The position numbers were made by a program, and so were the translations under genes. The notes under the pieces are model-generated. The model saw only the letters and a program-made list of their open reading frames with translations, had not been told where the DNA came from and did not search any database. From positions 64,001 to 128,000 of IMG/VR virus record IMGVR_UViG_3300042197_002762: a stretch of DNA of 64,000 nucleotides, one strand, 5' to 3'. Shown in pieces: positions 130 through 25,666 of this stretch. This DNA is from a virus. The stretch's first letter is position 1; the number at the start of each line of letters is the position of its first letter.

Positions 130-1152
130 GTGGAAAAACACTCTGAATATGGTAGGTTGTATAGTGAAATATGTAGGGGGTTTTCACAATCTTTAATTAG
201 TAAACGCTCTGTCTATTTTAAACATCCTACTTTAGCAGAACATTTTTCAATATATTCTAGTTACGATATATTTTTAAAAGAAGGTAAGAATAAAGGTTTA
301 TACTCAGAATCAGAAAAAATCGAAGAAGCTATTAATAATGGTTGGTGGTCATCAGAAAATGAGTCAAAAATAAATTTTCTCAAAAAGACTGTACAAAATT
401 TATTTAAAACAAAAGATAAATTATTATACCCTTCTCAAAAAGTAGAAGTAGAAAAACAAATTAAACAAAACGAGTCTATTCTTATTACGTATACAAAAGA
501 ACGTAGAGAAATAGTTGGTTATACTTTGGAAGATTATGCTAGTAGTAAAATGACCGAAGAATTACTGATTTTTTTTACTTATGAAAATCAGGATTTTACC
601 AAAAGACTATTTGAGAGTAGGGAAGAATATTATGATTTAAATGACGAGCGTTTAAAAAATATTAAAAATGCTTTTGATACGTACTCAGAAGTATTTAGCC
701 ATGATAATATTAAAAAAGTTGCCGCCACTGGGTTTTTTCAAAATCTTGTATATTTAAACGATGATGCCCATGGGTTCTGGGGTAAAGCCACAACTAACTG
801 TACAAAATATCAAATAGATCTTCTATTGTACGGTAAAATGTATAAAAATATTATTAAAAATTATAACGAATCTGGTAAGTCTGTACCAGATGATGTGTTA
901 AATGATGCTGAGAAACTTGTAATGTGGATTGACAATCAATCAAAAGATACTTCTATTAAATCCAAAAATAGAAAAAATAAATCTGGAGGTTCTAATCTTG
1001 TCACAAGCCCGGTTGGGGCCACAAAAGAAGACTTAGATAAAATTGGCGTTAAAGTTGAAAAATTACACGGTAAAAGTTTATTACAACTAGCAGAAGAGAA
1101 AGGTGGGGTACTCGAAAAATCAGAATATTTCAAAGCGCGCGAAAATAATTAA
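130..1152 (+). CDS. hypothetical protein, positionally a tail assembly chaperone candidate
   Basis: 340-aa helical ORF directly upstream of the TMP; function inferred from position only. Confidence 0.5.
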   Translation: MEKHSEYGRLYSEICRGFSQSLISKRSVYFKHPTLAEHFSIYSSYDIFLKEGKNKGLYSESEKIEEAINNGWWSSENESKINFLKKTVQNLFKTKDKLLYPSQKVEVEKQIKQNESILITYTKERREIVGYTLEDYASSKMTEELLIFFTYENQDFTKRLFESREEYYDLNDERLKNIKNAFDTYSEVFSHDNIKKVAATGFFQNLVYLNDDAHGFWGKATTNCTKYQIDLLLYGKMYKNIIKNYNESGKSVPDDVLNDAEKLVMWIDNQSKDTSIKSKNRKNKSGGSNLVTSPVGATKEDLDKIGVKVEKLHGKSLLQLAEEKGGVLEKSEYFKARENN

Positions 1153-1191: not shown

Positions 1192-4100
1192 ATGGCTGCT
1201 ATTACATTAGATATTGGTGGAAATACTAGGCGTTTAGACAGAGATATACAAAAGACTGTCAATAAGGTCTATAATATTAATTTAAAGACTAAGGGTGACC
1301 AACCACTTGGACGTATTACTGGACAAGTCAATGAATTTAATAAGTCGTTAGATGCTTCTAATGCTCGTGTTATTGCATTCGGTGCTAGTGCTGGTATTAT
1401 ATTTGGAGTTGAGAGAGCTTTTACTGCTTTGTTAACTTCTGTTGTAGAAGTTCAAAAATCTCTACAAGATATTAATGTTATTCTGAATGTTTCATCAAAA
1501 GAATTGCAAAAATTCGGTGGAGAATTATTCAATATTGCAAAAAATACTGGGCAAACTTTTCAAGCAGTTGCGGAAGCTGCTACAGAATTTTCTCGTCAAG
1601 GTTTGGGTTTAGAAGAAACTTTAAAAAGAACAAGTGAGGCTTTAATTCTTTCTCGTTTAAGTGGGTTGGACACCGTAAAAAGTGTTGAAGCTCTTACTGC
1701 TGCCGTAAACTCATTTGCAAGTCAAGCTGTTAGTGCCACAGAAGTCGTTAATAAGTTTGCGACCGTTGATGCTGCTTTTGCTGTTAGTTCCGCAGATCTT
1801 GCTGATGCCGTTGCGCGTGTAGGTAGTAGCGCGGCACAATCTGGGGTTTCATTAAACGAACTTATTGCGATTGTCACATCAGCACAGCAAACAACTGCTC
1901 GTGGTGGTGCGGTTATTGGTAACTCATTTAAAACAATTTTCACAAGATTACAAAGAACTAAAGTAGTAAGCTTATTAGAAAGTCTTGGAGTGGAAACGGT
2001 TGGAGCTGGAGGCCAAGTTAAGTCAACAATTCAATTATTACAAGACTTAGGCACTGTATATGATACCTTGGGAGCGCAACAACAAGCATATGTAGCTGAA
2101 CAGGTCGGTGGTGTTTTCCAGATTAACATTTTAAAAGCTGCTTTAGCTGACTTAGGTAAAGAATATTCTATTTATAATAATGCTCTTAATGTTTCCGCTA
2201 GCGCTACGGATCAAGCAGTTAGAAGAAATGAAGAATTAAATAAAACTTATGCTGCACAATTAAATGCCCTTCAAGAAAATGCAAGACAATTAGCAGCAGT
2301 TGGTGGTGAAAGATTATTTGGGCCATCCATTGATAGACTTGTTGGTGGAACAAATCAATTGTTATCTGGATTTAATGAAAGTGACGCTCAGGGGTTTGGC
2401 GTTACCCTTGGTCGGGGTATATTAGATGGTTTAGGTCAATTTATTGCTGGACCAGGTCTTGTGTTAATTGGAGGCGTTCTTCTTAAATTATTTAAAGATT
2501 TAGCCAATTTTGCTACTGGTAGCGTCAAACAACTTTTAGGATTAAATACTGCTTCTGCTCAACAACGTGATTTACAAGCAAGTATATCTCAAATTTTATC
2601 AAAAAATCCCCAATTAATAGATCTCGCCCTACAAGGGCAAAAAGGATTAAATACTGTTGCAAATCAATTGCTCACAAGTTTACAACAGCAAACCGTTGAA
2701 TTACAAAAACAAGCTGCTTTAGCTTCTCAACTTTCTAAAGCTTTTATTGGTGCAGGAGTTCGTATTAGTGGCGGAATTCCAGTCGCACCGACTCCAGGAA
2801 GACCTGGAAAAGCTGCTGGTTATATTCCTAATTTTGCTTCGCCTCAAAATAAAATAGCAGAAACTATTGGGGCTTATCAGGCTGGTTACGAACCAGGAAG
2901 AATTTTTAATAAAAGACTGTACGATGGACAGGGAGGTTCGTTTTTAGCGACAGTAAATAGTGCGGAATCTTTTGATACAGTTGTTGGCCCTAATGGGAAC
3001 AAGGGCACATTTGTTACGCCACCAAATGGTTTTGCCGCAAAAGGTTTTGTACCAAATTTTGCAAAATCAATTAAGACAGACGATTCATCAAAGATATTTG
3101 GCGCTGGACGTGTTTTTGAAAATGCGGTAGGATTAGCAGCTGGTCTTCAAAAAGAATATTTTGAAGATAATTTTATATTAGATTATGAACCAAATGTCTG
3201 GGCTGGAAAACAAGATATTAAAAAGATTTTAGGTATTAATCAGCGTACTAATTACGGAGATGCAAAATTAAGCGCTCAGGGTAACAATTTAACAAGTTAT
3301 CTTTCAAAAGTAATTCGATATGATAGTGGATTACGTGGAGTTCAAAAAGTAGGTAATATTAAAGATTTTAATCAAAAATTTGGCTTAAGAAAAAAAATTG
3401 ATATTAGTAAACGTGGCCCTAATAATATTAATTTATCACAACCGGGTGGTGGAGCTGTTATTATACCTGGAAATAAAAAAGGTGATGGATCAAAAGATCG
3501 TACAGTAAATATTAAAGCACGTTTAAGTGAATTAAAAAAAGTAAATAGTTCCATTGCAAATGTTTTTGCGAATCCAAATAATAAATATGGCATAGACCCA
3601 AAAAGTAAATCAGACCCCATCTTTTCTTTAAAAAATGTTTTGATTGATACTACAGAGGTATTAAGAAGTGGTACTTTTGGGGCACAAGGAAAAGAAGAAA
3701 GAGAAAGAAAAGCTAGAAATATTGCTTCTAGATTTACGTCAAAAAGTTTTGCTTCTGGTTTCATCCCAAATTTTGCACAAACACCAACACAATCTAATAA
3801 AGTAGTAGAACTCGGTGATACTACAACTAATCCACTTTTTAGAGGTAAGGTTTCATCTTTAATTTATCCACAGGTTTCAGAAAACAAGTCAAAAGCCCAA
3901 GGTGAAACAACATACTTAGGCAAAAAATATAGAGGGCTAGTTTCGATAGCTGGTATTAATAAAAAAGCCCTTAAAGGTGAGATACCTGATTTAGAAGCAA
4001 ATTTAGATCAGCTTTTACTCCGTGAAGCGAATGAATTTGGCCGCGCAATTGGTGGTACAGAATTTTTACAATCAGCATCAGAGCTTCCAAATATTGGCGC

Positions 4101-7100
4101 TGCTAAAGGTGCCGTTGGTGTGTCTTTTGAAGGTGGATTATTAACATTACTTAAAAGAGATGTTCAGAAAAGTGCTCAAAATGCTCGCATTGATTTTACA
4201 CAAGATCGAATAAACTCTAAATTTAAATCTCTATTTCATGGTGCTCCTGGAACTTATGAAGCAAAATATAGCCCTTCTTTAACTGGCGAAGTTTTGCAAA
4301 AAATGTTAAGAGGGGCTGGGGTTGGTGAAGTAAAGCGAGTAAAAAGTGGTCCTGGAGCAGGAGCTTCGATGAAACAGAGAGAAGCGGTTTTAGCTAGCAT
4401 TAATAAAGATGTAGCGGAAGGTAGAATTACTCAACCAAGAAGAGGAAATGCTCTTGAGGCAGAAGTAAGAAGAAGATTGCCTCTTATGTTCCCAGGTTCG
4501 GTAAAAGGCGCTGCCGCTGGTTATATTCCAAATTTTGCAGCACCACTCGTAAGAGCAGTAGACGACAAAGAATTACGAATGATGTTATCTAAATTTGGCA
4601 AAGGATTTTCTTTCCAAGGTAAATCTTCTGAACAGTCCGCCTTAGAGTTTTTTGGCGGATCTGGAACTTATATGTGGGATGCTCTTTCAAGACCAGGCGA
4701 ACAAATGAGCGACAGACAAGCTTATAAACAAAATATTGGTCGCGCAAAAAATTGGTCCACAGCTAGAAAACAAAGTTCTTGGCTGGTAAGATATAATAGA
4801 AGTAAATTAAAAGATTCCGAGCTACTTCCAGATATGGAAACTGGTGGCGCTTCTGTTTACGGATTACCTTTAAGTAAAGATCAAATTGTTTGGCCTATTA
4901 AGCAAGCTAATGGGGCTGGTAGAATTTTTGAAAAAGATATTCCAGCATTTTTAAGTGGCCAAGTAAATGATGCAATAAAACGTGAAAGAGAAGCTGGTAT
5001 TCCTAAAAATAAAATTTATTTGGCGCAAGAAAAAGCTCTTACTAAAACAAATCCTATGGGTCTTGGAGTATTTAATAAATTACAAGAGCCAAATGCCGCT
5101 ACTAGAAAAACAGCTATGCGTAGCAAGGGTTTTGCGAGTGGTTATATTCCCAATTTTGCTATTGAAGATCCGGATATGCAAGCTGCTGATTTGGGTTCAT
5201 CTATTGGAGCAGTTGTTGCGCAATTAGGATTTTTAGCTTTTGGCTTACAAGGGGCTGGAGAGCAATACAAACAATCGTTAGCAGAGTTAACAAAATCAAA
5301 TGTTAATACTGCAAAAATTAATTCCAAAAATCTTAGAGAAAGTACTTCAAGAAGACTTCTTGTAGGTAATACTGCTGCTGCGCAAGGTGGGGCCAGAATA
5401 CGACCGGATGGGTCTCGTGGTCGTGATTTTTCAAACTATACTGGGGGTAAAACGGGCAAAGAATTTGGTGATTTGAGAAGAGCGTCGAGAAGCCCACTAT
5501 CACAACAAAGAAGAGATGAGGCGGCTAGAGAACTAAGAGCAGCTAGAGCAGCAGAAAGAACAGCCGCAAGAGGAACTGGTGGTCAAAAATTTGCAGCAGC
5601 AGGTAAGGCTGGTGGATTTGGTTTGGCTTTAGCTGGCCCGATTTTAGGTGAAACAATTAAAAATGCATTTGGACAAGAAACTCCTGGCGCAAGACAGGCC
5701 GGAACTGTTGCGGGAGCAGCTGGCGAAATTGCAGGTTTTGCTGGCACAGGAGCTATATTTGGACCTGTTGGTGCGGCAGTTGGCACTGTAGTTGGCTCTT
5801 TACTGACAATACCAAAAATTGTGGGGGCATTCGCTTCCGACTTCCCAGAATTATCTAATGCGGCTAAAAAAGCTGGAGAAGAATTAACGAAATTTAGCGA
5901 TTCTGGAGCGAAATTATTAACATCATTTGAAACTTTACAAAAAGGATTGGAAGATCCTGGAACTTCACAAGAAGTTATAAATAAAGCATCGGAAGAATAT
6001 GCTAAAATTTTGTCTGGACTTTCCGCAGAAGATCAAAAACGTTTATCTGCGGCTGCAAAAACGGGAAAATTAGAAACTGAATATGCGAAAATTTTAGCAG
6101 AAAAAACTGCTGAATTACAATCTAGAGAAGCTGCTGCTAGCTTAGGTCAAGCGACTGGAGATGTAGAATCAAGGAATTTTATGCGAAATGCCGCGAGCTA
6201 TCTTAATTATTCTCCTATAGTGGGTGGAGCTAGCGCTATTTCACAATCTCTTGGTGGTCCAGGCTTACAAGATTATATAGATTATTATTTACCAAGTTTA
6301 ACTGGAGTGGGTACCGAATCTGATAAAACAAATCAAGCTGTTTTTGCACAATCATTAACGCAAGGTAAAAGTGGCGGAGATGCTCTAAAAGCTTTAGAAA
6401 AAGCTGGGGGTACTGGTGTTGTAAAACAACTAAATCAAATACAAACTGGAGACGTTGGCGCTTTAGAAGCATTACTTAATAAAGTAATTCCAGAGCAAGA
6501 GGGTAAAGCTGATATTGTCGCACAATTTATTGCACAAGCAAATAATAATGCCCAAGATTTTCAAAATGTTGTTGGTAGTCTTGGCCAAAGTTTCTTAAAA
6601 ACAATGGAAACTGCAAAAGGTGCTAAAACGGCTGCTGATGAAATGCTTGCAGCTCAAGAAGCAGAAGCTAAAAAGAAAAAAACGGCAGTAGAAGCTACCA
6701 ATAAAATTATAGAAAATTTAGAAAGAAATATAAGGGTTGCGCAATTTGCAGCAGAATCAGAAAGAGCACTCGCTCGTTCTAGAGAAAAATTCGCTAGACA
6801 AGAATTATTTGCAGATCGTTTTACTAGAAAAACGGAAACAGCTGGGGCAATTGTTGGGACAGACGCCCCATTAGCACAAGCTTTTGGGTTAAGAGAAGAA
6901 ATTGCTACTATTGCTCAATCACAAATAGAAAGTATTGAAAATATAAAATTTAGTTTTGTAGATACAATTAATTCTTCTATTAATGATGCATTTAAAGATG
7001 CAACAGGCGCCACCATTTCAGGGGCAAGGCAGGATGGAACATCTAAAGATGTAACAAAAACAAATGATCAATTATCTTCACAAGCTTTTCAACAAACTCG

Positions 7101-8742
7101 CGCATTTAAAGAAGTCCAATCTGTTTTAAATCAATATTTAAAAAGTTCTGGAACTGTCAATACAGAGGCTTTATTAGCCCAGATTGATCAAAAACTAGCT
7201 GACGCAAAAGTTAATGACGCAACAAGATTAAAAATAGAACAACAATTAAAAGAAGAATCTTCTAAAGTAAATGGCGAGATTAAACTTTTAAAACAAGAGT
7301 CCGTACAAAATTTTAAAAAATTAGCTAAGGAACAGTTACAAAGAATTCTTATTCAAAAAATTGGTCAAGCCCAGGCTTTTGGGGGTGGGATAGATGAATT
7401 TTTGAATCCACGCGAGGCGGGGGAGGGTGCTTTTGATAAGGTTACAGAATCAGTAAAAGCATTCGATCAATTCGAAGGCCAACAAGCAGATTTTCGTTTT
7501 GATTACCGGCAGGGTACAAACGATTTTAGATATCAATACGGGGCAGCCCAAAGGGCTAGACAAGAAATGGCTCCAGAATTTGGTAGAGAGGCGTTAAAGC
7601 TTATTGGAAATTTACAAAATATTACAGGATACACACCAGACCCACAAGGCAAAGCTTTTCAAGCTGGAGTTACTGGCTTAGAAGAATTTTTAAGGAGAAG
7701 GGTCACTGAGCTACAAACTCTTGCTAAAGATCCAGGTACTGGCCAATTAGAGAGAGATGAAATTAATGCAGCTTTATCAACTATTCCCGAACTAGGCGGT
7801 CTTAAAACAATAGCAACATTACAAGTAGCTAGACAAACTGGCGCATTAGATGAAACACAATACGAAGCAATTACTAAAAAATATCAGGATCCAGTTTTAC
7901 AAGCTTTAAGAGAACGTGCAATTCAAGTAGGCGGAACTGAAGGGGCAGCATTATTAGAAGAAGTAAAAAAATTAGCTAAAGACCGAATAACAACAGAAGG
8001 CGCAGAACCTACTGTCGAAGCAATAAATACAACAAATAGTATTCTTAATGATATTTTAACATCTCCAGGAATTAATGGTCAAAGATCTAATGATGTTTCA
8101 GATGTTGGGGCCATTGCTGATAAATTATTAAAAAATGCACAATCGCCTACTATCAACCCACAACTAATAGGACAAGCAACTCCCGTTACGCCTACAACAA
8201 CTACAGCGGCTGCACCAACGACTCCACCTATTAGTCAAATTCCAGCAATTATTGATTTTACACCAGTAGTTTCAGCTGTTGCGATAGGTAACTCATTCTT
8301 ATCAAGTATCGCAGATTCAATATTAGATATTAAACAAATTCAAGACATCGATAAAGATTATGGTAATTATGATACCAGATCAAGAGAAAAAGAGGCTCTC
8401 AGCAAAATACAAAGTAAAAATGAGAATTTCACAAGTAAAATTCCCGCAACAACTGGAACCGTAGCAGGTATCGGGGGTGAAGTATTAGTTCAAAGTATTA
8501 ATACATTAGTAGAAGCTTTAAGACAGCAACCAGCCCAAAATAATTCTGCACAAAGCCAAGGCGTGACACAACCAAATATTCAAACAACAACAAATGCCCC
8601 AGTTACTTTAGTTGTAAATGCTGAAAGCTCCACAGATATTGCTACTGCTGTTGGTGAAGCTGTTCAAAATGCAATCCCGACAATTATTGACAAAGTAAAA
8701 GTAGCGCTTGGTCAAAAGGTTCCACCAAAGGCAGGGGGTTAA
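1192..8742 (+). CDS. phage tail tape measure protein (TP901-like N-terminal domain) with internal cassettes
   Basis: 2516 aa; N-terminal TMP signature (LQDINVIL...FNIAKNTGQTFQAVAEAATEFSRQG...LSRLSGLD...DAAFAVSSADLADAVARVGSSA); Gly/Ala-rich hydrophobic stretches; long helical regions; lies at head of tail operon. Confidence 0.92.
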   Translation: MAAITLDIGGNTRRLDRDIQKTVNKVYNINLKTKGDQPLGRITGQVNEFNKSLDASNARVIAFGASAGIIFGVERAFTALLTSVVEVQKSLQDINVILNVSSKELQKFGGELFNIAKNTGQTFQAVAEAATEFSRQGLGLEETLKRTSEALILSRLSGLDTVKSVEALTAAVNSFASQAVSATEVVNKFATVDAAFAVSSADLADAVARVGSSAAQSGVSLNELIAIVTSAQQTTARGGAVIGNSFKTIFTRLQRTKVVSLLESLGVETVGAGGQVKSTIQLLQDLGTVYDTLGAQQQAYVAEQVGGVFQINILKAALADLGKEYSIYNNALNVSASATDQAVRRNEELNKTYAAQLNALQENARQLAAVGGERLFGPSIDRLVGGTNQLLSGFNESDAQGFGVTLGRGILDGLGQFIAGPGLVLIGGVLLKLFKDLANFATGSVKQLLGLNTASAQQRDLQASISQILSKNPQLIDLALQGQKGLNTVANQLLTSLQQQTVELQKQAALASQLSKAFIGAGVRISGGIPVAPTPGRPGKAAGYIPNFASPQNKIAETIGAYQAGYEPGRIFNKRLYDGQGGSFLATVNSAESFDTVVGPNGNKGTFVTPPNGFAAKGFVPNFAKSIKTDDSSKIFGAGRVFENAVGLAAGLQKEYFEDNFILDYEPNVWAGKQDIKKILGINQRTNYGDAKLSAQGNNLTSYLSKVIRYDSGLRGVQKVGNIKDFNQKFGLRKKIDISKRGPNNINLSQPGGGAVIIPGNKKGDGSKDRTVNIKARLSELKKVNSSIANVFANPNNKYGIDPKSKSDPIFSLKNVLIDTTEVLRSGTFGAQGKEERERKARNIASRFTSKSFASGFIPNFAQTPTQSNKVVELGDTTTNPLFRGKVSSLIYPQVSENKSKAQGETTYLGKKYRGLVSIAGINKKALKGEIPDLEANLDQLLLREANEFGRAIGGTEFLQSASELPNIGAAKGAVGVSFEGGLLTLLKRDVQKSAQNARIDFTQDRINSKFKSLFHGAPGTYEAKYSPSLTGEVLQKMLRGAGVGEVKRVKSGPGAGASMKQREAVLASINKDVAEGRITQPRRGNALEAEVRRRLPLMFPGSVKGAAAGYIPNFAAPLVRAVDDKELRMMLSKFGKGFSFQGKSSEQSALEFFGGSGTYMWDALSRPGEQMSDRQAYKQNIGRAKNWSTARKQSSWLVRYNRSKLKDSELLPDMETGGASVYGLPLSKDQIVWPIKQANGAGRIFEKDIPAFLSGQVNDAIKREREAGIPKNKIYLAQEKALTKTNPMGLGVFNKLQEPNAATRKTAMRSKGFASGYIPNFAIEDPDMQAADLGSSIGAVVAQLGFLAFGLQGAGEQYKQSLAELTKSNVNTAKINSKNLRESTSRRLLVGNTAAAQGGARIRPDGSRGRDFSNYTGGKTGKEFGDLRRASRSPLSQQRRDEAARELRAARAAERTAARGTGGQKFAAAGKAGGFGLALAGPILGETIKNAFGQETPGARQAGTVAGAAGEIAGFAGTGAIFGPVGAAVGTVVGSLLTIPKIVGAFASDFPELSNAAKKAGEELTKFSDSGAKLLTSFETLQKGLEDPGTSQEVINKASEEYAKILSGLSAEDQKRLSAAAKTGKLETEYAKILAEKTAELQSREAAASLGQATGDVESRNFMRNAASYLNYSPIVGGASAISQSLGGPGLQDYIDYYLPSLTGVGTESDKTNQAVFAQSLTQGKSGGDALKALEKAGGTGVVKQLNQIQTGDVGALEALLNKVIPEQEGKADIVAQFIAQANNNAQDFQNVVGSLGQSFLKTMETAKGAKTAADEMLAAQEAEAKKKKTAVEATNKIIENLERNIRVAQFAAESERALARSREKFARQELFADRFTRKTETAGAIVGTDAPLAQAFGLREEIATIAQSQIESIENIKFSFVDTINSSINDAFKDATGATISGARQDGTSKDVTKTNDQLSSQAFQQTRAFKEVQSVLNQYLKSSGTVNTEALLAQIDQKLADAKVNDATRLKIEQQLKEESSKVNGEIKLLKQESVQNFKKLAKEQLQRILIQKIGQAQAFGGGIDEFLNPREAGEGAFDKVTESVKAFDQFEGQQADFRFDYRQGTNDFRYQYGAAQRARQEMAPEFGREALKLIGNLQNITGYTPDPQGKAFQAGVTGLEEFLRRRVTELQTLAKDPGTGQLERDEINAALSTIPELGGLKTIATLQVARQTGALDETQYEAITKKYQDPVLQALRERAIQVGGTEGAALLEEVKKLAKDRITTEGAEPTVEAINTTNSILNDILTSPGINGQRSNDVSDVGAIADKLLKNAQSPTINPQLIGQATPVTPTTTTAAAPTTPPISQIPAIIDFTPVVSAVAIGNSFLSSIADSILDIKQIQDIDKDYGNYDTRSREKEALSKIQSKNENFTSKIPATTGTVAGIGGEVLVQSINTLVEALRQQPAQNNSAQSQGVTQPNIQTTTNAPVTLVVNAESSTDIATAVGEAVQNAIPTIIDKVKVALGQKVPPKAGG
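2812..5160 (+). repeat. five dispersed G[YF][IV]PNFA peptide repeats inside the TMP
   Basis: GYIPNFA 2818-2838, GFVPNFA 3043-3063, GFIPNFA 3757-3777, GYIPNFA 4519-4539, GYIPNFA 5140-5160, all in frame. Confidence 0.95.
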
Positions 8743-8747
8743 TTTAA

Positions 8748-10385
8748 ATGGCAAATTTATTATTTGATAATGTTGAAGTATTAGGTTACGATCATCAAAA
8801 TAATTTTTTTGGTGAAAGATCTTTATTTTATTCATCTTTAAGAACAATATCAATCCGTGGTTATATACTAGATTTGGTAAATAGTAGCGGTGTAAAAGGC
8901 GTCTTTAATAATGCGAAAGACATTATTAAATTAACTCAAGATTTCCAAGAAATAATAATTAATGGCGAAAACTTCGGCGTAGGTAAAGTAAAATCTTTTT
9001 CTGTTGATTCTGGAAATTGGGTTCGTTACACTCAATACGAAGCAACGATTGAAGTTTTATTAGAAGTCCCAATTGCAGATTTGGATTCCAAAGAATTTAC
9101 TGGAATAAATGTCGGCAATAAACAATTAAATTTAATTAAAAGTTTTTCGGAAAGTTTTTCTTTAAACTTTGACACGCAAAATAAAGTTTTAGGTGGAGAA
9201 CATTCTATTGATATAGAATATGATGCAGATAATAAAAACATTGATATTATAAGATTTGCCCAATCTTTAGCTACTGAATTATTAAAAACAATACCATCTA
9301 ATTCTAATATTGCAGAAGGCAATTATATTACTAGAAATAATTACAAAGTTTTAAATAGTGAAAACTATAATACTGTTACTGGCAAATGTGGTTTTAGAAG
9401 AACTTTTTCATATAGTACTTTAAATGCTAATAAGAATTACTCTTTTATTAGAACACACTCCGTTGAAATAAATGAAGATGGTATTGCGACTGCCAGCGAA
9501 AACTGTTCAATAAAAGCAGAATTTGATGTACCATCTTTATACGAAAATGCTTTAATTGGTTATAACGAACAAATCGCTGGGGTTTATTCTAGATGCAATA
9601 CGGTATTCCAAAACTATAAAACAAAATTTAATATTATCACAAATTTAAACCAGCAGTTTATTAGCAAATCTGTTCAAGTTAATAAATTCAATGGCACTAT
9701 TAATTTTACTATAAATTTTGATAACGATCCTAAAAAAATTAATTCTTCTTATATTTGGGAATATGTAAGTAATTTAGACAGAAGCGAAAATGGAGTATGG
9801 ACTACTTCCGAAAATGGTTCTGTTAAAGGAAATGGTAAAGTTGGTTCTATTGATAAATACAATAATGCTAATACTGGGTGGAATACAGCTAAGGGCGGTA
9901 TATTTGGTAGAGTAACATCTTTTTATAACAATGAAGCTACAAATAAAATTGGGGGAACTTTGAAAGAAATTAGTAAAACAATTAATCGTAATAAATACGA
10001 AGGTTTTATTAATTATAATTATACATATACAGACGATCCAACAATTAAAGATGGTTCTGATTCAGGTATTAAAAAAGTGGATATTGAAAAAACGGACACG
10101 GGACTTTTGCCAATCACAAAAGATTTTATTATACCAAATAGAACTTTTGCGTTAAATCAAAATAGAGATTTAAAACAACAGGGTACATATACTGTAAAAG
10201 TAAGTTTAGAAATTGGATGTACTTCTACTAATGTTCTTAATAGTTGGAATTATTTTACAAAAGCACAACAATATGCTGGGGGTAAACCAAATTTAGGTAA
10301 TGATGAATACTTAGAAGCAATTAATTATTCATCCAACGAAACAGATAGAACAATATCATACGAGGCAACTTATAAATATTCATAA
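8748..10385 (+). CDS. putative tail/baseplate structural protein
   Basis: 545 aa, beta-strand rich with internal repeats, immediately after TMP; paralogous pattern with next ORF. Confidence 0.6.
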   Translation: MANLLFDNVEVLGYDHQNNFFGERSLFYSSLRTISIRGYILDLVNSSGVKGVFNNAKDIIKLTQDFQEIIINGENFGVGKVKSFSVDSGNWVRYTQYEATIEVLLEVPIADLDSKEFTGINVGNKQLNLIKSFSESFSLNFDTQNKVLGGEHSIDIEYDADNKNIDIIRFAQSLATELLKTIPSNSNIAEGNYITRNNYKVLNSENYNTVTGKCGFRRTFSYSTLNANKNYSFIRTHSVEINEDGIATASENCSIKAEFDVPSLYENALIGYNEQIAGVYSRCNTVFQNYKTKFNIITNLNQQFISKSVQVNKFNGTINFTINFDNDPKKINSSYIWEYVSNLDRSENGVWTTSENGSVKGNGKVGSIDKYNNANTGWNTAKGGIFGRVTSFYNNEATNKIGGTLKEISKTINRNKYEGFINYNYTYTDDPTIKDGSDSGIKKVDIEKTDTGLLPITKDFIIPNRTFALNQNRDLKQQGTYTVKVSLEIGCTSTNVLNSWNYFTKAQQYAGGKPNLGNDEYLEAINYSSNETDRTISYEATYKYS

Positions 10386-10386
10386 T

Positions 10387-11994
10387 ATGAGTAATCAAGT
10401 AAAAATTCTATATAATGGTAAGGATGCTTTTAGTGGTATTTCAACAGTCCCATTTGTTTCGATTTCAAATGATTATATTGATTTTGGTACAAAATGGAAT
10501 CAAGTAACTAACATTACCTTAGAGGGGCAGTTAACTGGTAAATTTTTAGGACAAGCTTCTTATGGTTTACTTGCGGATGCGGCTAGAAAATTACATGAAA
10601 ATTTCAATCAAAACTATAAAACTTTATTAATTACAGAAAATGGTTCTGGATTATATACAGGACTTAATACAATTATTAATTCTATTAATATCGAACAATC
10701 TTCTTGGTATGGATTATTACCCTATTCAATTGATTTAACCGTATATGATTCTGGACTTTTTAAAGATTATTATGGAGTTGTGGAACCAGAAGAAACCTTT
10801 TCTTTTGACGAGGAAGACGGGGATATACTAAATCTTGTTCATTCAATTTCGGCAAAAGGTATTGTAGCTAAAAATAAAAATGCAATTGAAAATGCAAAAG
10901 AATGGGTTTTATCAAAAACAGGTAATTTTACCGGTATTTCGCCTATATTAATAAAAAATTTCAGAGCGGCGAGTAACAAACCATTTTTACTATATTCGAC
11001 ACAAGAGGTGGTAGATAGATTTAACGGTACGTATTCTTGGGAAGGAACATATAAAAAATCTACAAATTTAGAAAGTCCTAATAATGCTATTTTGAATTAT
11101 ACTGTAGATTTAAATTCTGGAATTGAAGACGGGATTGTTACGGCAAACATAAATGGCGGTTTAGAAGGTAATAATATCGAAGTTTTAAGAACTGAATACA
11201 ATAATTTAGATTTATATAACATATGCAGTGAAATTTGTAATCGCGTTTTTAAAGAGCCAATTTCTAACAGGCCAATATCACAATCAGTCGAAGAAACAGC
11301 AGAAGAAAACAGATTAGAGTTTAGTTCTACATATAATAATGATTACTCAGATCAATTAGTAAATAATTATACGGTTGATATTAATGAAGACTCTTTAAAG
11401 TGTATAAGAACCGTTACATTAAATTCTACAATATCATGTAAGTATGGTGATCTAGCCACAAAATGGCAAAAAGTAAATGATTTTTATAAAACTAAATTTT
11501 TTCCATATTCTCTAGCTTCAGAAGAATTTTTTTCAGAATTTGGTGCTGCGAATTTAAATCCCGTCCCATTAACAGAATCAATTAGTTTTGATAGTTTTAA
11601 TGCCCAAATTACTTATAACGCACAATATTCAGATAAGCCCCTAATTTTTAGCGCTGATATTTTAAATGTAAGTTCTAATGTTACATTTAATCCATCAATA
11701 TTTATTCATGTTCCTAATACATCAGCTTTTACAGCTAGAGAACACAATATTCAAAATTTAAGGTGTGCTAATAGATCAAAAGTTCAAATTTCTGTAACAG
11801 CTACGGCTAGAATGAACAAAAATATATCATCGGCGGAAAGCGCAGCTATTAGTGAAATTAATAGAATTAAATCAAACTATACAAATGGTCGTGCAAATCT
11901 ATTATTGGAAGACAGAAGCTTTTCAAGAAATAATGATATTAAGACTGTAACAATAAATGAAACATGGTCTTTTGATGGATCCCTAATCTCATAA
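10387..11994 (+). CDS. putative tail/baseplate structural protein, paralog of previous ORF
   Basis: 535 aa; colinear motifs with 8748..10385; TAA-T-ATG coupling. Confidence 0.6.
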   Translation: MSNQVKILYNGKDAFSGISTVPFVSISNDYIDFGTKWNQVTNITLEGQLTGKFLGQASYGLLADAARKLHENFNQNYKTLLITENGSGLYTGLNTIINSINIEQSSWYGLLPYSIDLTVYDSGLFKDYYGVVEPEETFSFDEEDGDILNLVHSISAKGIVAKNKNAIENAKEWVLSKTGNFTGISPILIKNFRAASNKPFLLYSTQEVVDRFNGTYSWEGTYKKSTNLESPNNAILNYTVDLNSGIEDGIVTANINGGLEGNNIEVLRTEYNNLDLYNICSEICNRVFKEPISNRPISQSVEETAEENRLEFSSTYNNDYSDQLVNNYTVDINEDSLKCIRTVTLNSTISCKYGDLATKWQKVNDFYKTKFFPYSLASEEFFSEFGAANLNPVPLTESISFDSFNAQITYNAQYSDKPLIFSADILNVSSNVTFNPSIFIHVPNTSAFTAREHNIQNLRCANRSKVQISVTATARMNKNISSAESAAISEINRIKSNYTNGRANLLLEDRSFSRNNDIKTVTINETWSFDGSLIS

Positions 11995-11995
11995 T

Positions 11996-14900
11996 ATGGT
12001 AAATATAATCTCAGGTATGAATTTTTTGGTAGAAGCCTTGAATATCGATATTCAAGATATTCCTGCTGCATTTTCATTTAGAGCAAATCCTACATTTAAT
12101 ACTAATATCATATATCCTGACCCTTGGGCATCTGGGTCATCTTCTGGTATCTTAAATACAGTTGGCGGAAATGGTTTTTTTACTTATTCTGGGACAGGTA
12201 ATTTTAATGGAAACAATTATTTTAATTTAAATAAAAATTATTCTTTTAATAATTCTACAATATTTTTATCATATGAAAAGTTAAGATCTGGTAATGAAAT
12301 CTTATTATCTTCAATAACAGGAAATTCTTTTAATAACTCTTCTGGTTTTAATCTAGGGATTAATGACGCAAATAAATTATATTTAAAATATTGGAATAAT
12401 GTTGAAGGGCCATTTACTTTTACTTATAGTGGAATTTTATCAGATAAAAATATTATTGTAATTAATAGAAGTGATTCAATTATTACATTAGGACATTTTA
12501 ATAATAATACTTTTGAATTTTCATCACAAGAATTTGAAATTTTTCAAAATAATTTTATTAATAGTTCTAATTTATTTATTGGTGGTACGCCAAACCGTCC
12601 AAATTGGGATTTAAATAATCCATCTAATTTTAGTGGTTATATGGACAGATTGTATATATTTAATAATATACCATTTGTTTATGCTAATGTTTTATCTCGT
12701 GGACTGTTTTCTGAGCCAACTGGTTTCGCGGGGGAATTAGAAGAATACTGTTACACAACAGGATTTTTATCTGGATCTGGTTTTTCTTATTCTACAGTTA
12801 CTGGAGTTTTAGTTTCGGGTTTTCAAAGTGGAATTACTGGAATTACTGGCTATCAAGAAGTTATTTCAGGCAGTTCTTTTACTGGTATTACTGGGTATAG
12901 TGGAAAATATTTAGGTTCATATATTGATAATTGTGGAAATAATATTGACATAATAGAACAAGTTCCGCTTTCTGGTATTATATCAAATGAAATTACAATA
13001 ACGGTTCCTTTAACTGGAATTACTTTTGTAACTGGTTTTGTTGATGTCCCACTTATTGGTGTCGAAACTGGTATCCAAAATGTTTTTGTAACAGGACTTA
13101 TTTGTGATTCGTATTTCAATAATATTGGAGATGTTTTATATGCATATGATGAACCTTATTTATCATCTTTATCTTATAAAGAAATAAGCTTATTGACCAC
13201 TGTAAACCCAAATAAAATTGAGCCGACTGGTAATGATATTATTGAGATCTATGCCGAAAAATATCAACCTAAAACTTTAGAGTATAATAAAAATTTAGCT
13301 TACGATACTTTAAATGAAAATTATTTTTACATTGACCGAGAATTTAAACCTAATGAAGTTCTTATGTTCGGTAATGGTCAAGCTCTTATTGATAATGGAT
13401 ATGAACTTATTCCAAGCGGATATGAAATAATAAGAAGTCCTAATTTTGACTATTTTATTACAGGGACAACTGTAGAAACAAATAAATTTTTTGGAGCAAA
13501 AGATTATTTATTTTATGATTTTTTTAGTGGTAGATCTAGTTTTTACCCAAGATTGAGTAATATTTTTGGGGAAGTTTTTTATCAATCTAGTAATAGTGGT
13601 GTAGATGCTTTTGTTTTTAAAAATGGTCAAAAATTAATTAGTGGTATTGATTATTCTGTAGATAGATTAAATTCAGCGCAATTAATATATGGTTCTGGCA
13701 ATCGTGCAGAATTAGGTTGGAATTTAAATTTAAATGAAGATGGTGATTTGCTAATGGTATCTGATCGTGGCTCCCGTACTATTGCTCAAAATCTTTATAT
13801 ATATAATAAAGACTCTAATTCACAATGGAATTCATCTCAGACATTAACAGGTTTAATGAAGATTGTATGGACTGGGCCGAACTCAGTTATAAGTAGAGAT
13901 TTTGGATCCTATTTAAGTAAAAATGGTAAGGTATTGGTTGTTTTAAATTCTAAGGAAATAGATATTTTTACCGGTTCTAAAAATTCTAACTGGAGTTTAT
14001 GTAAAAATTTTAAATATTCTGCTAATTTTCCTTTGGGTTCTGTTTTTCATACACAGTCTGTCCAAATAACAGACGTTATTACCCCACTTAACGAAGTTAC
14101 CATGAATTACGATGGATCTTTAATTTTAGTTAACGCTCCAAGATTAAGTGGATATTCAGAGAATTCAAGGATTTTAATATTAACAGGTTCTTTAGAAAAT
14201 GGAGATTGGGTTCAAACTAGTTTTTTAGATACTTCATTATTATATATCAGGCCCTATTCTTTGAGACAGCTTAATTTAAATAATGATGGCACAATTTTAG
14301 GGATCGCTGAAAGATTTAGTGCTTGGCCAGGACCATTTGTTGGGCATGTTAGGATTTTAACTGGTTTTATTAATAATTGGAATTTATGTTCAATAATTAG
14401 TGGATCTGGTATTGGGGGCTCGTTAGCCATGTCTAATGACGCAAATATTATATGTACTAGCAACCCATATAGTGGAAATAATATTTCTCAGTATGGAGCG
14501 GGTGCAATTTATATATATACAGGATCAGTTTCTAATGGTTGGAATTTGAAACAAACTATTACGGGAAGTCATGATAATCGTGGAGATGCGATTGGTCGCA
14601 AAATAAAAATTTCAAACGACGGAAATACAATTTTATTCAATGCTGGAATAAGTAATAATACTTCGCCTACAAAAAATAGAATAATAAAATATAAAGGTAA
14701 TAAAAATATGGGGTGGTTACCAGATAATATTTATTATCCAAATAATTTTCAACAAGATAGTGAATTTATAAATTACGGTCAAAATATTGAATTAAATGGT
14801 TTGGGGAATGCTTTTATGACTACTGCTCCTACAACTACTATTTATCCAAATGAGAGTGTAGGGGCTCTTTATACATACGGAGAAGGAATGAATTTGTATT

Positions 14901-15178
14901 TTTTAAATGAAGAGTTTTCTAATCAATTAAATTATTTTATGGTTAAAGAAGTCGATCATTATAACAATTACGCATTAAATTCAGGAATTTCCGGTACTTT
15001 ACCGTTTAATAAACCATTTAATCACGGATGCTCTCAAGTTTATTATAATGGCATTAAACAAAAAATTGGAAATAATTATGTGGAAAATAGTCGATATGAT
15101 CTAATTTCTGGAACTTTTAACCAACCAAGTGAATTTCAAGAAGTAATTTATAATAATACTGACGATTTTTTTGTGTAA
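11996..15178 (+). CDS. tail fibre/adhesin-like protein: LamG-like N-terminus plus FG-GAP-like beta-propeller
   Basis: FNGNNYFNL...LFIGG...FSGYMDRLYIFN (concanavalin/LamG pattern); six or more blades such as LAMSNDANIICTSNPY..GAGAIYIY and IKISNDGNTILFNA. Confidence 0.7.
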   Translation: MVNIISGMNFLVEALNIDIQDIPAAFSFRANPTFNTNIIYPDPWASGSSSGILNTVGGNGFFTYSGTGNFNGNNYFNLNKNYSFNNSTIFLSYEKLRSGNEILLSSITGNSFNNSSGFNLGINDANKLYLKYWNNVEGPFTFTYSGILSDKNIIVINRSDSIITLGHFNNNTFEFSSQEFEIFQNNFINSSNLFIGGTPNRPNWDLNNPSNFSGYMDRLYIFNNIPFVYANVLSRGLFSEPTGFAGELEEYCYTTGFLSGSGFSYSTVTGVLVSGFQSGITGITGYQEVISGSSFTGITGYSGKYLGSYIDNCGNNIDIIEQVPLSGIISNEITITVPLTGITFVTGFVDVPLIGVETGIQNVFVTGLICDSYFNNIGDVLYAYDEPYLSSLSYKEISLLTTVNPNKIEPTGNDIIEIYAEKYQPKTLEYNKNLAYDTLNENYFYIDREFKPNEVLMFGNGQALIDNGYELIPSGYEIIRSPNFDYFITGTTVETNKFFGAKDYLFYDFFSGRSSFYPRLSNIFGEVFYQSSNSGVDAFVFKNGQKLISGIDYSVDRLNSAQLIYGSGNRAELGWNLNLNEDGDLLMVSDRGSRTIAQNLYIYNKDSNSQWNSSQTLTGLMKIVWTGPNSVISRDFGSYLSKNGKVLVVLNSKEIDIFTGSKNSNWSLCKNFKYSANFPLGSVFHTQSVQITDVITPLNEVTMNYDGSLILVNAPRLSGYSENSRILILTGSLENGDWVQTSFLDTSLLYIRPYSLRQLNLNNDGTILGIAERFSAWPGPFVGHVRILTGFINNWNLCSIISGSGIGGSLAMSNDANIICTSNPYSGNNISQYGAGAIYIYTGSVSNGWNLKQTITGSHDNRGDAIGRKIKISNDGNTILFNAGISNNTSPTKNRIIKYKGNKNMGWLPDNIYYPNNFQQDSEFINYGQNIELNGLGNAFMTTAPTTTIYPNESVGALYTYGEGMNLYFLNEEFSNQLNYFMVKEVDHYNNYALNSGISGTLPFNKPFNHGCSQVYYNGIKQKIGNNYVENSRYDLISGTFNQPSEFQEVIYNNTDDFFV
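15173..15178 (+). promoter_or_regulatory. GTGTAA putative late-promoter motif
   Basis: 29 nt upstream of ATG 15208, AAGGA runs between; overlaps previous stop codon. Confidence 0.45.
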
Positions 15179-15207
15179 ATTAAATAGGAATATAAAGGAA
15201 AAAGGAT

Positions 15208-17613: not shown

Positions 17614-17615
17614 GT

Positions 17616-20912: not shown

Positions 20913-20948
20913 AATGAATTTAATAATTTATATAAAATTACTTTTTAA

Positions 20949-20954
20949 GTGTAA
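20949..20954 (+). promoter_or_regulatory. GTGTAA putative late-promoter motif
   Basis: Intergenic, 23 nt before ATG 20978, AGGA/AAGG between. Confidence 0.5.
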
Positions 20955-20977
20955 CATATATAGGAAAAAGGTTAAAT

Positions 20978-24025: not shown

Positions 24026-24027
24026 TC

Positions 24028-25083: not shown

Positions 25084-25088
25084 AATAT

Positions 25089-25664
25089 ATGTCAAATTAT
25101 AATAAAATAGGAATTACTAGACCTACTGCTGGACAAGCGCACCCATTTAAAATTGATATAGGCAAAAAGGGGACAAGATCTGATGGAACTCCTATTTATT
25201 ATTTAGCTGTTAATTATCATTCTAGACTATTTACGGGAATGGGAAAAACTAGTAAATATTTACAATGGTTAAAAATTCCAATTAAAGGTTTAGATTTTCC
25301 ACAAGATGTACCATCTTCATTTCCTGGTCAAAATTATTATTGTGTTTTAAAAGTTACTGTAAATAATTTAAGCGCTGAAGAAGCTGAAATTATATGGGTT
25401 TCAAATGATAAAACAGTTAATGAATTACAGCCCGTCACTTTTGAAGGAAGTGATAATCTAAAACAGGTAGAAGCAAGAATCATTATAGGTGTTTTTGTTT
25501 CAGACGATGAAGCTGTAGCTGGACTTCCTGGAAACGAAAGTGCTGTTAATACCGCATATATAATGCAAAATATTAATACAAATTTATTAATGTGCAATAT
25601 GGTTTTTGATGGTGCGCCAATTATATACCCTGTTCCATTTGCAGGCGGTAGATTAAACTTCTAA
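25089..25664 (+). CDS. hypothetical protein (tail module)
   Basis: 191 aa in-operon ORF. Confidence 0.55.
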   Translation: MSNYNKIGITRPTAGQAHPFKIDIGKKGTRSDGTPIYYLAVNYHSRLFTGMGKTSKYLQWLKIPIKGLDFPQDVPSSFPGQNYYCVLKVTVNNLSAEEAEIIWVSNDKTVNELQPVTFEGSDNLKQVEARIIIGVFVSDDEAVAGLPGNESAVNTAYIMQNINTNLLMCNMVFDGAPIIYPVPFAGGRLNF

Positions 25665-25666
25665 TT

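What the first reader, a model, noticed from the sequence alone, without database searches (positions are those of the whole stretch)
2812..5160. Tape measure protein carrying a GYIPNFA-delimited array of enzyme-like cassettes
Seen: five in-frame G[YF][IV]PNFA motifs, spaced 75, 238, 254 and 207 aa apart, interrupt the helical TMP. The segments between them are globular, Lys/Arg-rich and unlike TMP. Established: TMPs are ejected into the host at infection. Inference: the motif marks a modular payload bay, so the tail ruler delivers pre-made nuclease/ART-type effectors, with the motif acting as a recombination junction or processing site. I know of no description of this architecture.
Basis: partly seen in the sequence, partly recalled or inferred. 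Interest (0 to 1): 0.87.

Follow-up and report, generated by a model that had tools for sequence, protein, structure and literature searches.

The report
Tape measure protein with motif-delimited cassettes
The tail-length ruler protein of an uncultured 178-kb lake phage carries a string of separately folding domains, each bounded by the same short peptide (G-F/Y-I/V-P-N-F-A). Hundreds of related phages swap, add and drop these domains at that peptide, which looks like a natural plug-in slot for proteins that enter the host with the DNA.

Summary
ORF 1192-8742 encodes a 2516-aa TP901-type tape measure protein (TMP). It has five in-frame G[YF][IV]PNFA motifs at aa 543, 618, 856, 1110 and 1317, and these are the only five matches in the whole 178-kb phage genome.

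The motif marks a large uncultured aquatic phage TMP family. It occurs 3-11 times per protein as [AS]xG[FY][IV]PNF[AS], with 1289 copies in 266 TMPs.

It delimits mosaic cassettes. There are about 89 cassette families of 90 aa or more in about 150 contigs. Homology breakpoints between relatives fall at the motifs, and cassette order can differ.

Nearly all members keep a minimal string: short N segment, about 250-aa core cassette, short A segment. This TMP adds a K cassette and an H cassette.

AlphaFold2 models the K, core and A parts as folded domains. All five motifs lie in low-confidence linkers.

The core has an invariant E / D / (D/E)xK / K signature, and K carries a copy of it. The confident core model (pLDDT 91) matches nothing in PDB or BFVD, and no Pfam or NCBIfam nuclease or ART family hits. 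The only recognised enzyme family is GNAT, found in cassettes of relatives.

The array is strongly basic (+45) and sits between two hydrophobic segments.

My best reading is a virion-delivered polyvalent module whose linker motif is read by one common partner. The modular bay is supported. The nuclease/ART identities and the motif's role are not shown.

The scan had noted this same stretch before, as first-reader notes only.

The parts
1192..8742 (+). Tape measure protein gene, 2516 aa (P0001)
   Evidence: Single ORF. PF10145 PhageMin_Tail scores 84 bits against a cut-off of 33.2 at aa 116-307. Ten PHROG 'tail length tape measure protein' families match aa 11-770.
1537..2112 (+). PhageMin_Tail (TP901-type) domain, aa 116-307
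   Evidence: It is the only part similar to cultured Bacillus/Lactococcus phage TMPs.
2428..2514 (+). Hydrophobic Gly-rich segment before the array, aa 413-441
   Evidence: Kyte-Doolittle peak of 1.76. G420, P421 and G422 are invariant in relatives.
2818..2838 (+). Motif 1, GYIPNFA (aa 543-549)
   Evidence: It lies in a stretch with pLDDT below 50.
2839..3042 (+). Short N segment (family D, 68 aa); a segment of this kind (families C/D/J/R) follows motif 1 in nearly all relatives
   Evidence: invariant N and E in 'VNSAE'. Modelled with low pLDDT.
3043..3063 (+). Motif 2, GFVPNFA (aa 618-624)
3064..3756 (+). Accessory cassette K (231 aa). Its first ~75 aa are a paralogue of the core signature (E643, D664, D690-A-K692)
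   Evidence: Family K has 10 members among 120 homologs. hhalign gives K-T 98% and K-E 91-92%. AF2 pLDDT 55-93. No Pfam or Atlas match.
3757..3777 (+). Motif 3, GFIPNFA (aa 856-862)
   Evidence: It lies in a linker with pLDDT below 50 (model residues 318-338).
3778..4518 (+). Core cassette B (247 aa), with invariant G976-x-x-F979-E980, D1001, K1025 (E-A-K) and K1037
   Evidence: Alignment A4. The B/E/X/Z superfamily is linked at 94-98% hhalign probability. A profile search finds 746 clusters, with TMP-length proteins dominating the 150 listed. AF2 pLDDT 90.9. No fold match.
4519..4539 (+). Motif 4, GYIPNFA (aa 1110-1116)
4540..4941 (+). Accessory cassette H, N-part (~135 aa; 'APLVRAxDDKELRMMLSKF...WLVR.NR...IFEKDI')
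   Evidence: Highly conserved in 15 TMPs and found at different array positions. No free-standing homolog of 79-254 aa. No Pfam or Atlas match. Modelled with low pLDDT from only 4 alignment rows.
4942..5139 (+). A-like terminal segment (~66 aa). It is fused to H here, without the motif that separates the two in relatives
   Evidence: It aligns to the A-segment consensus of the family. AF2 gives a small alpha/beta domain at pLDDT 79-95.
5140..5160 (+). Motif 5, GYIPNFA (aa 1317-1323)
5191..5247 (+). Hydrophobic segment just after the array, aa 1334-1352
   Evidence: Kyte-Doolittle peak of 1.71. The consensus 'QLGxLAF' is conserved in relatives.
5590..5823 (+). Gly/Ala-rich hydrophobic segments, aa 1467-1544
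   Evidence: Kyte-Doolittle peaks of 1.3-1.8.
130..1152 (+). Conserved 340-aa gene directly upstream of the TMP (candidate tail assembly chaperone; function not shown)
   Evidence: A homolog is present in 86 of 92 related loci. The preceding 264-aa gene is present in 91 of 92. No family or PDB match.

Best explanation
This is a TP901-type tail tape measure protein. The stretch between two hydrophobic segments (aa ~441-1334) is built as a string of independently folding domains. The domains are joined by linkers of about 20 residues, and each linker is centred on the peptide [AS]xG[FY][IV]PNF[AS].

The ancestral string is: short N segment, core cassette, short A segment. The core cassette has an invariant E/D/(D/E)xK/K site. 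Accessory cassettes have been inserted and exchanged at the linkers. In this TMP they are K and H; in relatives there are dozens of other families, including GNAT acetyltransferases.

I propose that the string leaves the virion with the TMP at infection. The hydrophobic segments would enter the inner membrane, and the strongly basic array would face the cytoplasm at the DNA entry site. That would make it a polyvalent, virion-delivered module.

I propose that the motif is a short linear motif read by one common partner. Most likely it is a cleavage or hand-off site that separates the cassettes after tail assembly or on ejection. Because every junction carries it, it also serves as the in-frame exchange point for cassette shuffling.

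Shown: the architecture, the conservation, the mosaicism, the breakpoints, the folded domains and the disordered linkers. Inferred: ejection, membrane topology, effector roles and cleavage.
For: TMP identity: PF10145 and PHROG TMP families.

Motif distribution:
- Five copies here, and none elsewhere in the genome.
- The motif is present 2-11 times in 266 distinct relatives, 1289 copies in all. G is kept in 99.4% of copies, P in 100% and N in 97%.
- More than 548 IMG/VR stretches and more than 427 metagenome stretches encode relatives of the TMP.

Cassette mosaicism:
- Cassette families are mosaic.
- Most show no detectable relation to each other by hhalign, apart from B/E/X/Z, K/T and H/g.
- BLAST breakpoints between P0001 and P0002, P0008, P0009, P0011, P0043 and P0085 fall within a few residues of motifs. 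The H cassette sits on the other side of the core in P0009.
- Array span is 0-1743 aa and is uncorrelated with the length of the rest of the TMP (r=0.05).

Structure: AF2 gives folded K, core and A-like domains, with every motif in a linker of pLDDT below 50, about 6 residues from the domain ends.

Core cassette: invariant G..FE, D, (D/E)xK and K. The signature is repeated in K.

Enzyme cassette in relatives: GNAT scores above the Pfam cut-off inside a motif-bounded cassette (P0076 aa 1359-1414, between motifs at 1339 and 1523).

Topology clues: net charge +45 between hydrophobic segments at aa 413-441 and 1334-1352.

Literature:
- In lambda, the TMP is proximity-labelled at the inner-membrane ManYZ complex during genome injection and is bound by a defence nuclease (PMC13190303).
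- Multi-domain polyvalent proteins, including GNAT and ART domains, are proposed to be injected with phage DNA and to be autoproteolytically processed (PMC5512222).
Against: No protease domain was found in the TMP or in its conserved neighbours.

The motif does not occur in head proteins, so the prohead protease is an unlikely processor.

N is replaced by S or A in about 3% of copies, which argues against an obligatory Asn-based self-cleavage chemistry.

The core cassette is universal in the family and seen only inside TMPs. It may therefore serve tail assembly or channel formation rather than act as an effector.

87 of the 89 cassette-family representatives have no known family, so 'effector' is an assumption for nearly all of them.

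Three copies of a folded 25-kDa domain do not fit side by side in a tail-tube lumen of about 4 nm (my own knowledge). The cassettes must therefore be staggered or unfolded in the virion, which has not been shown.

No experiment exists for any member: all are uncultured, and no cultured phage in INPHARED has the array.
Confidence: 0.4

Rival explanations
1. Assembly-docking motif. The peptide is a repeated binding site for the tail assembly chaperone or for the inner wall of the tail tube. It keeps a TMP that carries bulky, non-helical inserts in register while the tube polymerises. The cassettes are passengers or spacers, and the protein is not cut.
For: The motif is hydrophobic and aromatic, with basic residues upstream, and lies in exposed linkers. 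One copy accompanies every inserted cassette, so anchor density stays constant. Two genes of unknown function directly upstream of the TMP co-occur with it in 86-91 of 92 loci. Tail assembly chaperones are known to bind TMPs at several sites (lambda gpG/gpGT; my own knowledge).
Against: No partner has been identified. The motif also occurs in a second, distal array near the C-terminus in 41 of 224 TMPs and flanks even the shortest segments, which is more than register-keeping would seem to need. Known chaperone-TMP contacts are not mediated by a sharply conserved 9-mer (my own knowledge).
Confidence: 0.3
2. Structural hinge and recombination scar. The G-x-x-P-N turn with three hydrophobic anchors is simply the preferred inter-domain joint of this TMP family. 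It is kept because only in-frame exchanges at identical joints give viable tails, and no partner reads it.
For: G, P and N are classic turn formers and are the most invariant positions. All observed exchange breakpoints lie at the motif. Motif copies 1, 4 and 5 share about 20 nt of near-identical DNA that could seed recombination.
Against: The codons of the five copies differ at synonymous sites, and the peptide is kept across TMPs that are below 30% identical elsewhere. Selection therefore acts on the peptide, not on the DNA. Passive linkers do not normally keep 7 of 9 positions nearly invariant over 1289 copies.
Confidence: 0.15
3. The array is a working part of the DNA-injection channel. 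The core cassette and its flanking segments handle the DNA end or the membrane or cell wall at entry, and the extra cassettes adapt this machine to different hosts. They are not anti-host effectors.
For: The N-core-A string is almost universal and is found only in TMPs, at a fixed position. It sits between membrane-like segments. The invariant acidic/basic site would suit binding of DNA or a metal. TMP regions determine which inner-membrane route lambda-like phages use (PMC13190303).
Against: A GNAT acetyltransferase cassette and dozens of unrelated, freely exchanged accessory cassettes are hard to explain as channel parts. This rival overlaps with the best explanation for the core cassette.
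Confidence: 0.15

Closest known systems
TP901-1/SPbeta-type tape measure proteins (Pfam PF10145 PhageMin_Tail), including TMPs with embedded lytic domains (SPbeta YomI transglycosylase/peptidase, T5 pb2, mycobacteriophage Rpf-like motifs)
   Same: The N-terminal PhageMin_Tail domain matches (84 bits). About 25% identity to Bacillus and Lactococcus phage TMPs over aa 8-420. Very long protein with hydrophobic Gly-rich segments. Sits in the tail gene block. The idea that a TMP can carry non-ruler domains is established (my own knowledge).
   Different: No cultured-phage TMP matches the array region. The inserts are not cell-wall hydrolases. The inserts come as a variable series bounded by one conserved peptide, and I found no paper that mentions it.
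Polyvalent proteins of phages and conjugative elements (Iyer, Burroughs, Anand, de Souza, Aravind 2017, PMC5512222)
   Same: Many unrelated domains are strung in one virion-associated polypeptide, and the domain sets vary between relatives. GNAT domains are among them. The authors proposed injection with the DNA and proteolytic release of the domains.
   Different: That paper never mentions tape measure proteins ('tape' occurs 0 times). Its proteins are head-packaged or T4SS-delivered and usually carry a zincin-like peptidase. Here the carrier is the tail ruler, no peptidase domain was found, nearly all cassettes lack known families, and a fixed delimiter peptide marks every junction.
PD-(D/E)xK nuclease superfamily
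   Same: The core cassette, and the start of cassette K, carry in order a helix-borne E, a D, then (D/E)-x-K on a strand followed by a helix. All of these residues are invariant or nearly so.
   Different: No Pfam or NCBIfam nuclease model hits. A pLDDT-91 model finds no nuclease in PDB by Foldseek or VIA-align. The predicted strand order (a four-strand meander before the helices in B, and after them in K) is not the canonical alpha-beta-beta-beta-alpha-beta.
Viral polyproteins with conserved inter-domain cleavage sites
   Same: Folded domains are separated by short disordered linkers that all carry one conserved 7-10-residue peptide, including the first and last junction.
   Different: No cognate protease has been identified and no cleavage has been shown. 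The protein must stay intact at least until the tail is assembled if it is to measure tail length.

Membership tests
TP901-family tape measure protein (PF10145) | Match to the PhageMin_Tail model above the gathering score | tested here: met
   84.1 bits against a cut-off of 33.2, at aa 116-307. Ten PHROG TMP families match, best E 2.4e-51.
TP901-family tape measure protein (PF10145) | Longest gene of the tail block, lying between tail-tube/chaperone genes and distal tail genes | tested here: inconclusive
   The gene order terminase-portal-...-capsid-like-...-TMP-large downstream genes fits. The neighbours have no recognisable family, but they are syntenic in 86-91 of 92 loci.
Polyvalent proteins (PMC5512222) | Two or more distinct effector or catalytic domains in one polypeptide, varying between relatives | tested here: inconclusive
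   Varying multi-domain strings are shown. Recognised catalytic domains are limited to GNAT in relatives. In this TMP only an E/D/(D/E)xK signature is seen.
Polyvalent proteins (PMC5512222) | Delivery into the host with the DNA | not testable with these tools
   Inferred from TMP biology (lambda gpH at the inner membrane during injection, PMC13190303). There are no data for this phage.
Polyvalent proteins (PMC5512222) | Associated zincin-like or other peptidase domain for processing (frequent, not obligatory) | tested here: not met
   No peptidase family appears in Pfam scans of P0001, of 16 cassette-rich relatives or of 89 cassette representatives.
PD-(D/E)xK nuclease | Conserved E ... D ... 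(D/E)xK residues in that order | tested here: met
   Core: E980, D1001, E1023-A-K1025, invariant or nearly so in 47 sequences. K cassette: E643, D664, D690-A-K692.
PD-(D/E)xK nuclease | Restriction-endonuclease-like alpha-beta-beta-beta-alpha-beta fold | tested here: inconclusive
PD-(D/E)xK nuclease | Match to a curated nuclease family model | tested here: not met
   No Pfam or NCBIfam nuclease family is found for any of 47 core cassettes, even at E<=1 and E<=0.1 respectively, or for the K cassette.
ADP-ribosyltransferase (cassette H, as earlier first-reader notes proposed) | ART fold with an R-S-E or H-Y-E catalytic triad, or a match to an ART family model | tested here: inconclusive
   No Pfam hit at E<=10 except a chance 0.11. 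The best Atlas score is 0.76, to an unnamed viral cluster. The AF2 model of this part has pLDDT 29-49, so its fold could not be searched. The alignment of 15 members shows conserved R, D, E and W residues but no recognisable triad.
GNAT acetyltransferase (cassette L of relatives) | Match to PF00583 above the gathering score, inside a motif-bounded cassette | tested here: met
   In P0076 the match at aa 1359-1414 scores 26.0 bits against a cut-off of 20.7, between motifs at 1339 and 1523. It is found in 4 of 16 cassette-rich TMPs and in 1-2 of 89 cassette representatives. It is not present in this window's TMP.

The most novel reading that the evidence does not exclude
The tape measure protein is a tail-borne polyprotein. 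On ejection its hydrophobic segments enter the inner membrane, and the basic array is exposed to the cytoplasm at the DNA entry site. The G[FY][IV]PNF peptides are then cut by a host or phage protease, which releases a host-tailored mix of enzymes: a new-fold E/D/ExK enzyme, GNATs and dozens of unknown families. These enzymes would disarm defences that act at DNA entry. The motif would thus define a natural, exchangeable cargo slot for protein delivery through phage tails.
Probability: 0.2. Interest if true: 0.9.

Novelty: new variant of a known kind. Interest (0 to 1): 0.7.

Why it matters
If the cassettes are delivered and released, this family would be a large, untapped catalogue of proteins that phages place at the DNA entry site. 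That is the place where recently described defences such as SNIPE act on TMPs (PMC13190303). The catalogue holds about 89 cassette families in about 150 contigs, and nearly all lack a known family.

The delimiter peptide would give a simple rule for finding such cargo in metagenomes. It would also suggest a design principle for inserting cargo into phage tails.

Independently of function, the core cassette is a confidently predicted domain with an invariant acidic/basic site and no structural match. It is therefore a candidate new fold or enzyme family present in more than 700 protein clusters.

If the motif instead proves to be an assembly anchor, it would be the first sharply defined TMP-chaperone or TMP-tube recognition peptide.

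Tried and rejected
1. Complex prediction of the two conserved upstream proteins (264 aa and 340 aa) with TMP aa 530-630 gave no answer (score 0.03, mark 0.32). It says nothing either way.

2. Fold searches with the 811-residue multi-domain model were uninformative (Foldseek on PDB and VIA wide).

4. A profile-versus-PDB sequence search gave only chance hits to hemopexin-fold lectins, sharing a 'G.[IV]FE' word, and E~1-2 hits to two phage portal/virion proteins.

5. ESM Atlas gave nothing above 0.79 for cassettes K and H.

6. NCBIfam and Pfam gave nothing consistent for the core cassettes.

7. The search for related loci with the single 807-aa fragment failed. The alignment query worked.

8. 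Aligning the fragment to whole TMPs (A2) misplaced its first ~200 residues, so I discarded that alignment.

9. No free-standing homolog of the H N-part was found at 79-254 aa.

10. Ideas considered and set aside:
- Obligatory Asn-driven self-cleavage, as in nodavirus or tetravirus capsids or FlhB. N is S or A in about 3% of copies.
- The prohead protease as the processor. There is no motif outside the TMP.
- Sortase-like (LPNTA) and type IV prepilin-like (G|F) resemblance. These were recalled from memory only; the Thr, or the +5 Glu and the adjoining hydrophobic helix, are missing.
- Resemblance to the SSB C-terminal 'DIPF' tip. The context here is basic, not acidic, and the motif is internal.
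- Homology between the N and A segments. hhalign probability is below 2%.

11. The literature has no hit for the motif strings, and no paper links polyvalent proteins to TMPs.

Full report
WHAT IS THERE

The window is bases 64,001-128,000 of a 178,478-bp IMG/VR phage record with direct terminal repeats. ORF 1192-8742 (+) encodes a 2516-aa protein. Its aa 116-307 match Pfam PhageMin_Tail (PF10145, 84 bits, cut-off 33.2), and ten PHROG 'tail length tape measure protein' families match its N-terminal third. Cultured Bacillus, Lactococcus and other phage TMPs resemble only aa ~8-420, at about 25% identity.

Upstream lie a terminase, a portal-like gene and a block of small and mid-sized structural genes. 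Large genes without any family match lie downstream.

THE OBSERVATION

G[YF][IV]PNFA occurs at aa 543, 618, 856, 1110 and 1317, with spacings of 75, 238, 254 and 207 aa. It occurs in no other frame of the window. The degenerate DNA pattern matches five times in the whole genome, all in this gene, and the reversed control matches none. The five copies use different synonymous codons.

The segments between the motifs share nothing with each other beyond about 12 residues around the motif. They are basic: aa 543-1323 carry a net charge of +45.

THE MOTIF IS A FAMILY TRAIT

A word-indexed search with aa 530-1335 found 239 long proteins, nearly all carrying PF10145. They cover the query in steps of about 10, 19, 33, 60, 73 or 100%. 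Every one of the 120 retrieved proteins has 3-11 copies of the motif.

Scans of IMG/VR and JGI/ENA metagenomes found more than 548 and more than 427 stretches that encode relatives of the TMP, from lakes and from the sea.

Over 266 distinct TMPs and 1289 copies, the logo is [GN][KAF][AS]xG[FY][IV]PNF[AS], with Lys enriched upstream. When each position is relaxed in turn, G is kept in 99.4% of copies, P in 100%, N in 97% (S or A otherwise) and the second F in 95%.

No cultured phage in INPHARED matches the array region. No paper in the searchable library contains the motif strings or links them to TMPs.

CASSETTES

I cut 120 TMPs at the motifs and clustered the pieces. This gave 49 families plus 40 singletons. 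In about 150 contig-derived TMPs, the pieces of 90 aa or more fall into 89 families.

The commonest architecture has four motifs bounding three pieces:
- a short N segment of about 55-80 aa;
- a cassette of about 220-300 aa;
- a short A segment of about 56-70 aa.

The cassettes of about 250 aa (families B, E, X, Z) are one superfamily, linked at 94-98% hhalign probability. A profile of this superfamily finds 746 clusters at 50% identity. Of the 150 listed, most are TMP-length proteins, with the match at about aa 600-1100. This core is therefore a fixed part of the family, not a variable load.

Additional cassettes (F, M, O, K/T, S, L, V, Y, H/g and many more) are inserted in varying numbers. 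Apart from the pairs K/T and H/g, they are unrelated to each other by profile comparison.

This TMP reads D-K-B-H. Its fourth segment is an H cassette fused to an A-like segment. The motif that separates these two in relatives is absent here.

The array span ranges from 0 to 1743 aa and is uncorrelated with the length of the rest of the TMP (r=0.05). In 41 of 224 TMPs, further motifs lie far downstream of the main array.

EXCHANGE AT THE MOTIFS

BLAST segments between P0001 and close relatives stop and resume within a few residues of motifs. Against P0008, for example, the segments are 1-624 and 1099 onward; against P0002 they are 1-635 and 853 onward.

The H cassette (aa 1103-1323) is 71% identical to a cassette that lies before the core in P0009. 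Its N-part is 71% identical to a cassette directly after the N segment in P0043.

STRUCTURE

AlphaFold2 on aa 530-1340, with a 69-row alignment assembled from contig references, gave these results:
- the K cassette is folded (pLDDT 55-93);
- the core cassette is folded (above 90);
- the A-like segment is folded (79-95);
- all five motifs sit in stretches of pLDDT below 50, about six residues from the domain ends;
- the N segment and the H N-part were modelled poorly. The H N-part had only four aligned rows.

ENZYME-LIKE OR NOT

The core alignment has invariant G976..F979-E980, D1001, K1025 (in E-A-K) and K1037. The first 75 residues of cassette K align to this stretch with E643, D664 and D690-A-K692.

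This order of residues is that of PD-(D/E)xK nucleases, as earlier first-reader notes of this scan had also suggested. But no Pfam or NCBIfam model supports it, and no structural match supports it either. I therefore call it nuclease-like by pattern only.

For cassette H, which those notes proposed as ART-like, I found no support of any kind. Its model is too poor to search. It also has no free-standing homolog of 79-254 aa.

Among 16 cassette-rich relatives and 89 cassette representatives, the only recognised enzyme family is GNAT acetyltransferase. It scores above the Pfam cut-off in P0076 aa 1359-1414, inside a motif-bounded cassette. One helix-hairpin-helix hit also appeared.

SETTING IN THE PROTEIN

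The array lies between hydrophobic, Gly-rich segments at aa 413-441 and 1334-1352, with further ones at 1467-1544. Both flanking segments are conserved in relatives.

If these segments enter the inner membrane after ejection, the positive-inside rule would put the +45 array on the cytoplasmic side. Membrane entry is generally assumed for TMPs. For lambda gpH it is supported by proximity labelling at ManYZ during injection (PMC13190303). This topology is inference.

HOW IT MOST LIKELY WORKS

I favour, at about 0.4, a virion-delivered polyvalent module with the motif as a short linear motif read by one common partner. The most likely role is a cleavage or hand-off site.

The reasons are:
- the motif sits at every junction, including the first and the last;
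- it is centred in short disordered linkers;
- it is conserved like a protease site;
- TMPs are known to be processed after assembly (lambda gpH, T5 pb2; my own knowledge).

Against this reading:
- no protease was found;
- the motif is absent from head proteins;
- the core cassette may be a working part of the injection machine rather than an effector.

The rivals are an assembly-docking site for the chaperone or the tube (0.3), a passive hinge that doubles as a recombination joint (0.15) and a channel or DNA-handling role for the whole array (0.15). The last of these overlaps with my reading for the core cassette.

One complex prediction, of the two conserved upstream proteins with aa 530-630, gave no answer.

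COMPARISON AND NOVELTY

TMPs with embedded lytic domains, and polyvalent injected proteins (PMC5512222), are both known. That paper does not mention tape measure proteins.

What I found described nowhere is a tail ruler that carries a variable series of domains bounded by one conserved delimiter peptide, with exchange at that peptide, across hundreds of uncultured aquatic phages. I class it as a new variant of a known kind. The core cassette may in addition be a new fold.

The same stretch had been noted before in this scan by first readers only. I found no earlier follow-up.

Noticed in passing
L172:134-925 and window 130-1152 (G000:C1:63334-65152): Two conserved genes of unknown family (264 aa and 340 aa) sit directly upstream of the TMP, where tail assembly chaperones usually lie. 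The second reading frame opens only 8 nt before the stop of the first and is in the +1 frame, so a classic -1 G/GT frameshift overlap is not evident.
   Followed up: partly
window 3778-4518: The core cassette gives a very confident AlphaFold2 model (pLDDT 90.9) with no match in PDB or BFVD. It is a candidate new fold with an invariant E/D/ExK/K site, present in about 746 protein clusters.
   Followed up: yes
window 4540-5139: Cassette H is about 70-85% identical across TMPs that are otherwise only 30-50% identical, and it occupies different array positions. That suggests recent horizontal spread. In this TMP it has lost the motif that normally separates it from the A segment.
   Followed up: partly
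relatives P0002, P0020, P0021, P0033, P0075, P0077 and others (aa ~2000-3100): 41 of 224 TMPs have further motif copies far downstream of the main array. These bound very long (~1000 aa and ~640 aa) and short (~65 aa) segments. This window's TMP has none.
   Followed up: no
L171:12959-13495 and L171:13521-14645 (upstream of the window): A weak match to the Phage_cement family (E 0.0012, below the cut-off) lies next to a 374-aa gene that is probably the major capsid protein. The head and tail genes of this phage are otherwise unrecognisable to PHROGs and Pfam.
   Followed up: no
window 8748-27403: Nine large genes downstream of the TMP (191-1098 aa) have no PHROG hit at all. The first four are conserved in 30-40 of 92 related loci, and the later ones in almost none, which suggests a variable distal tail or host-recognition block.
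   Followed up: partly
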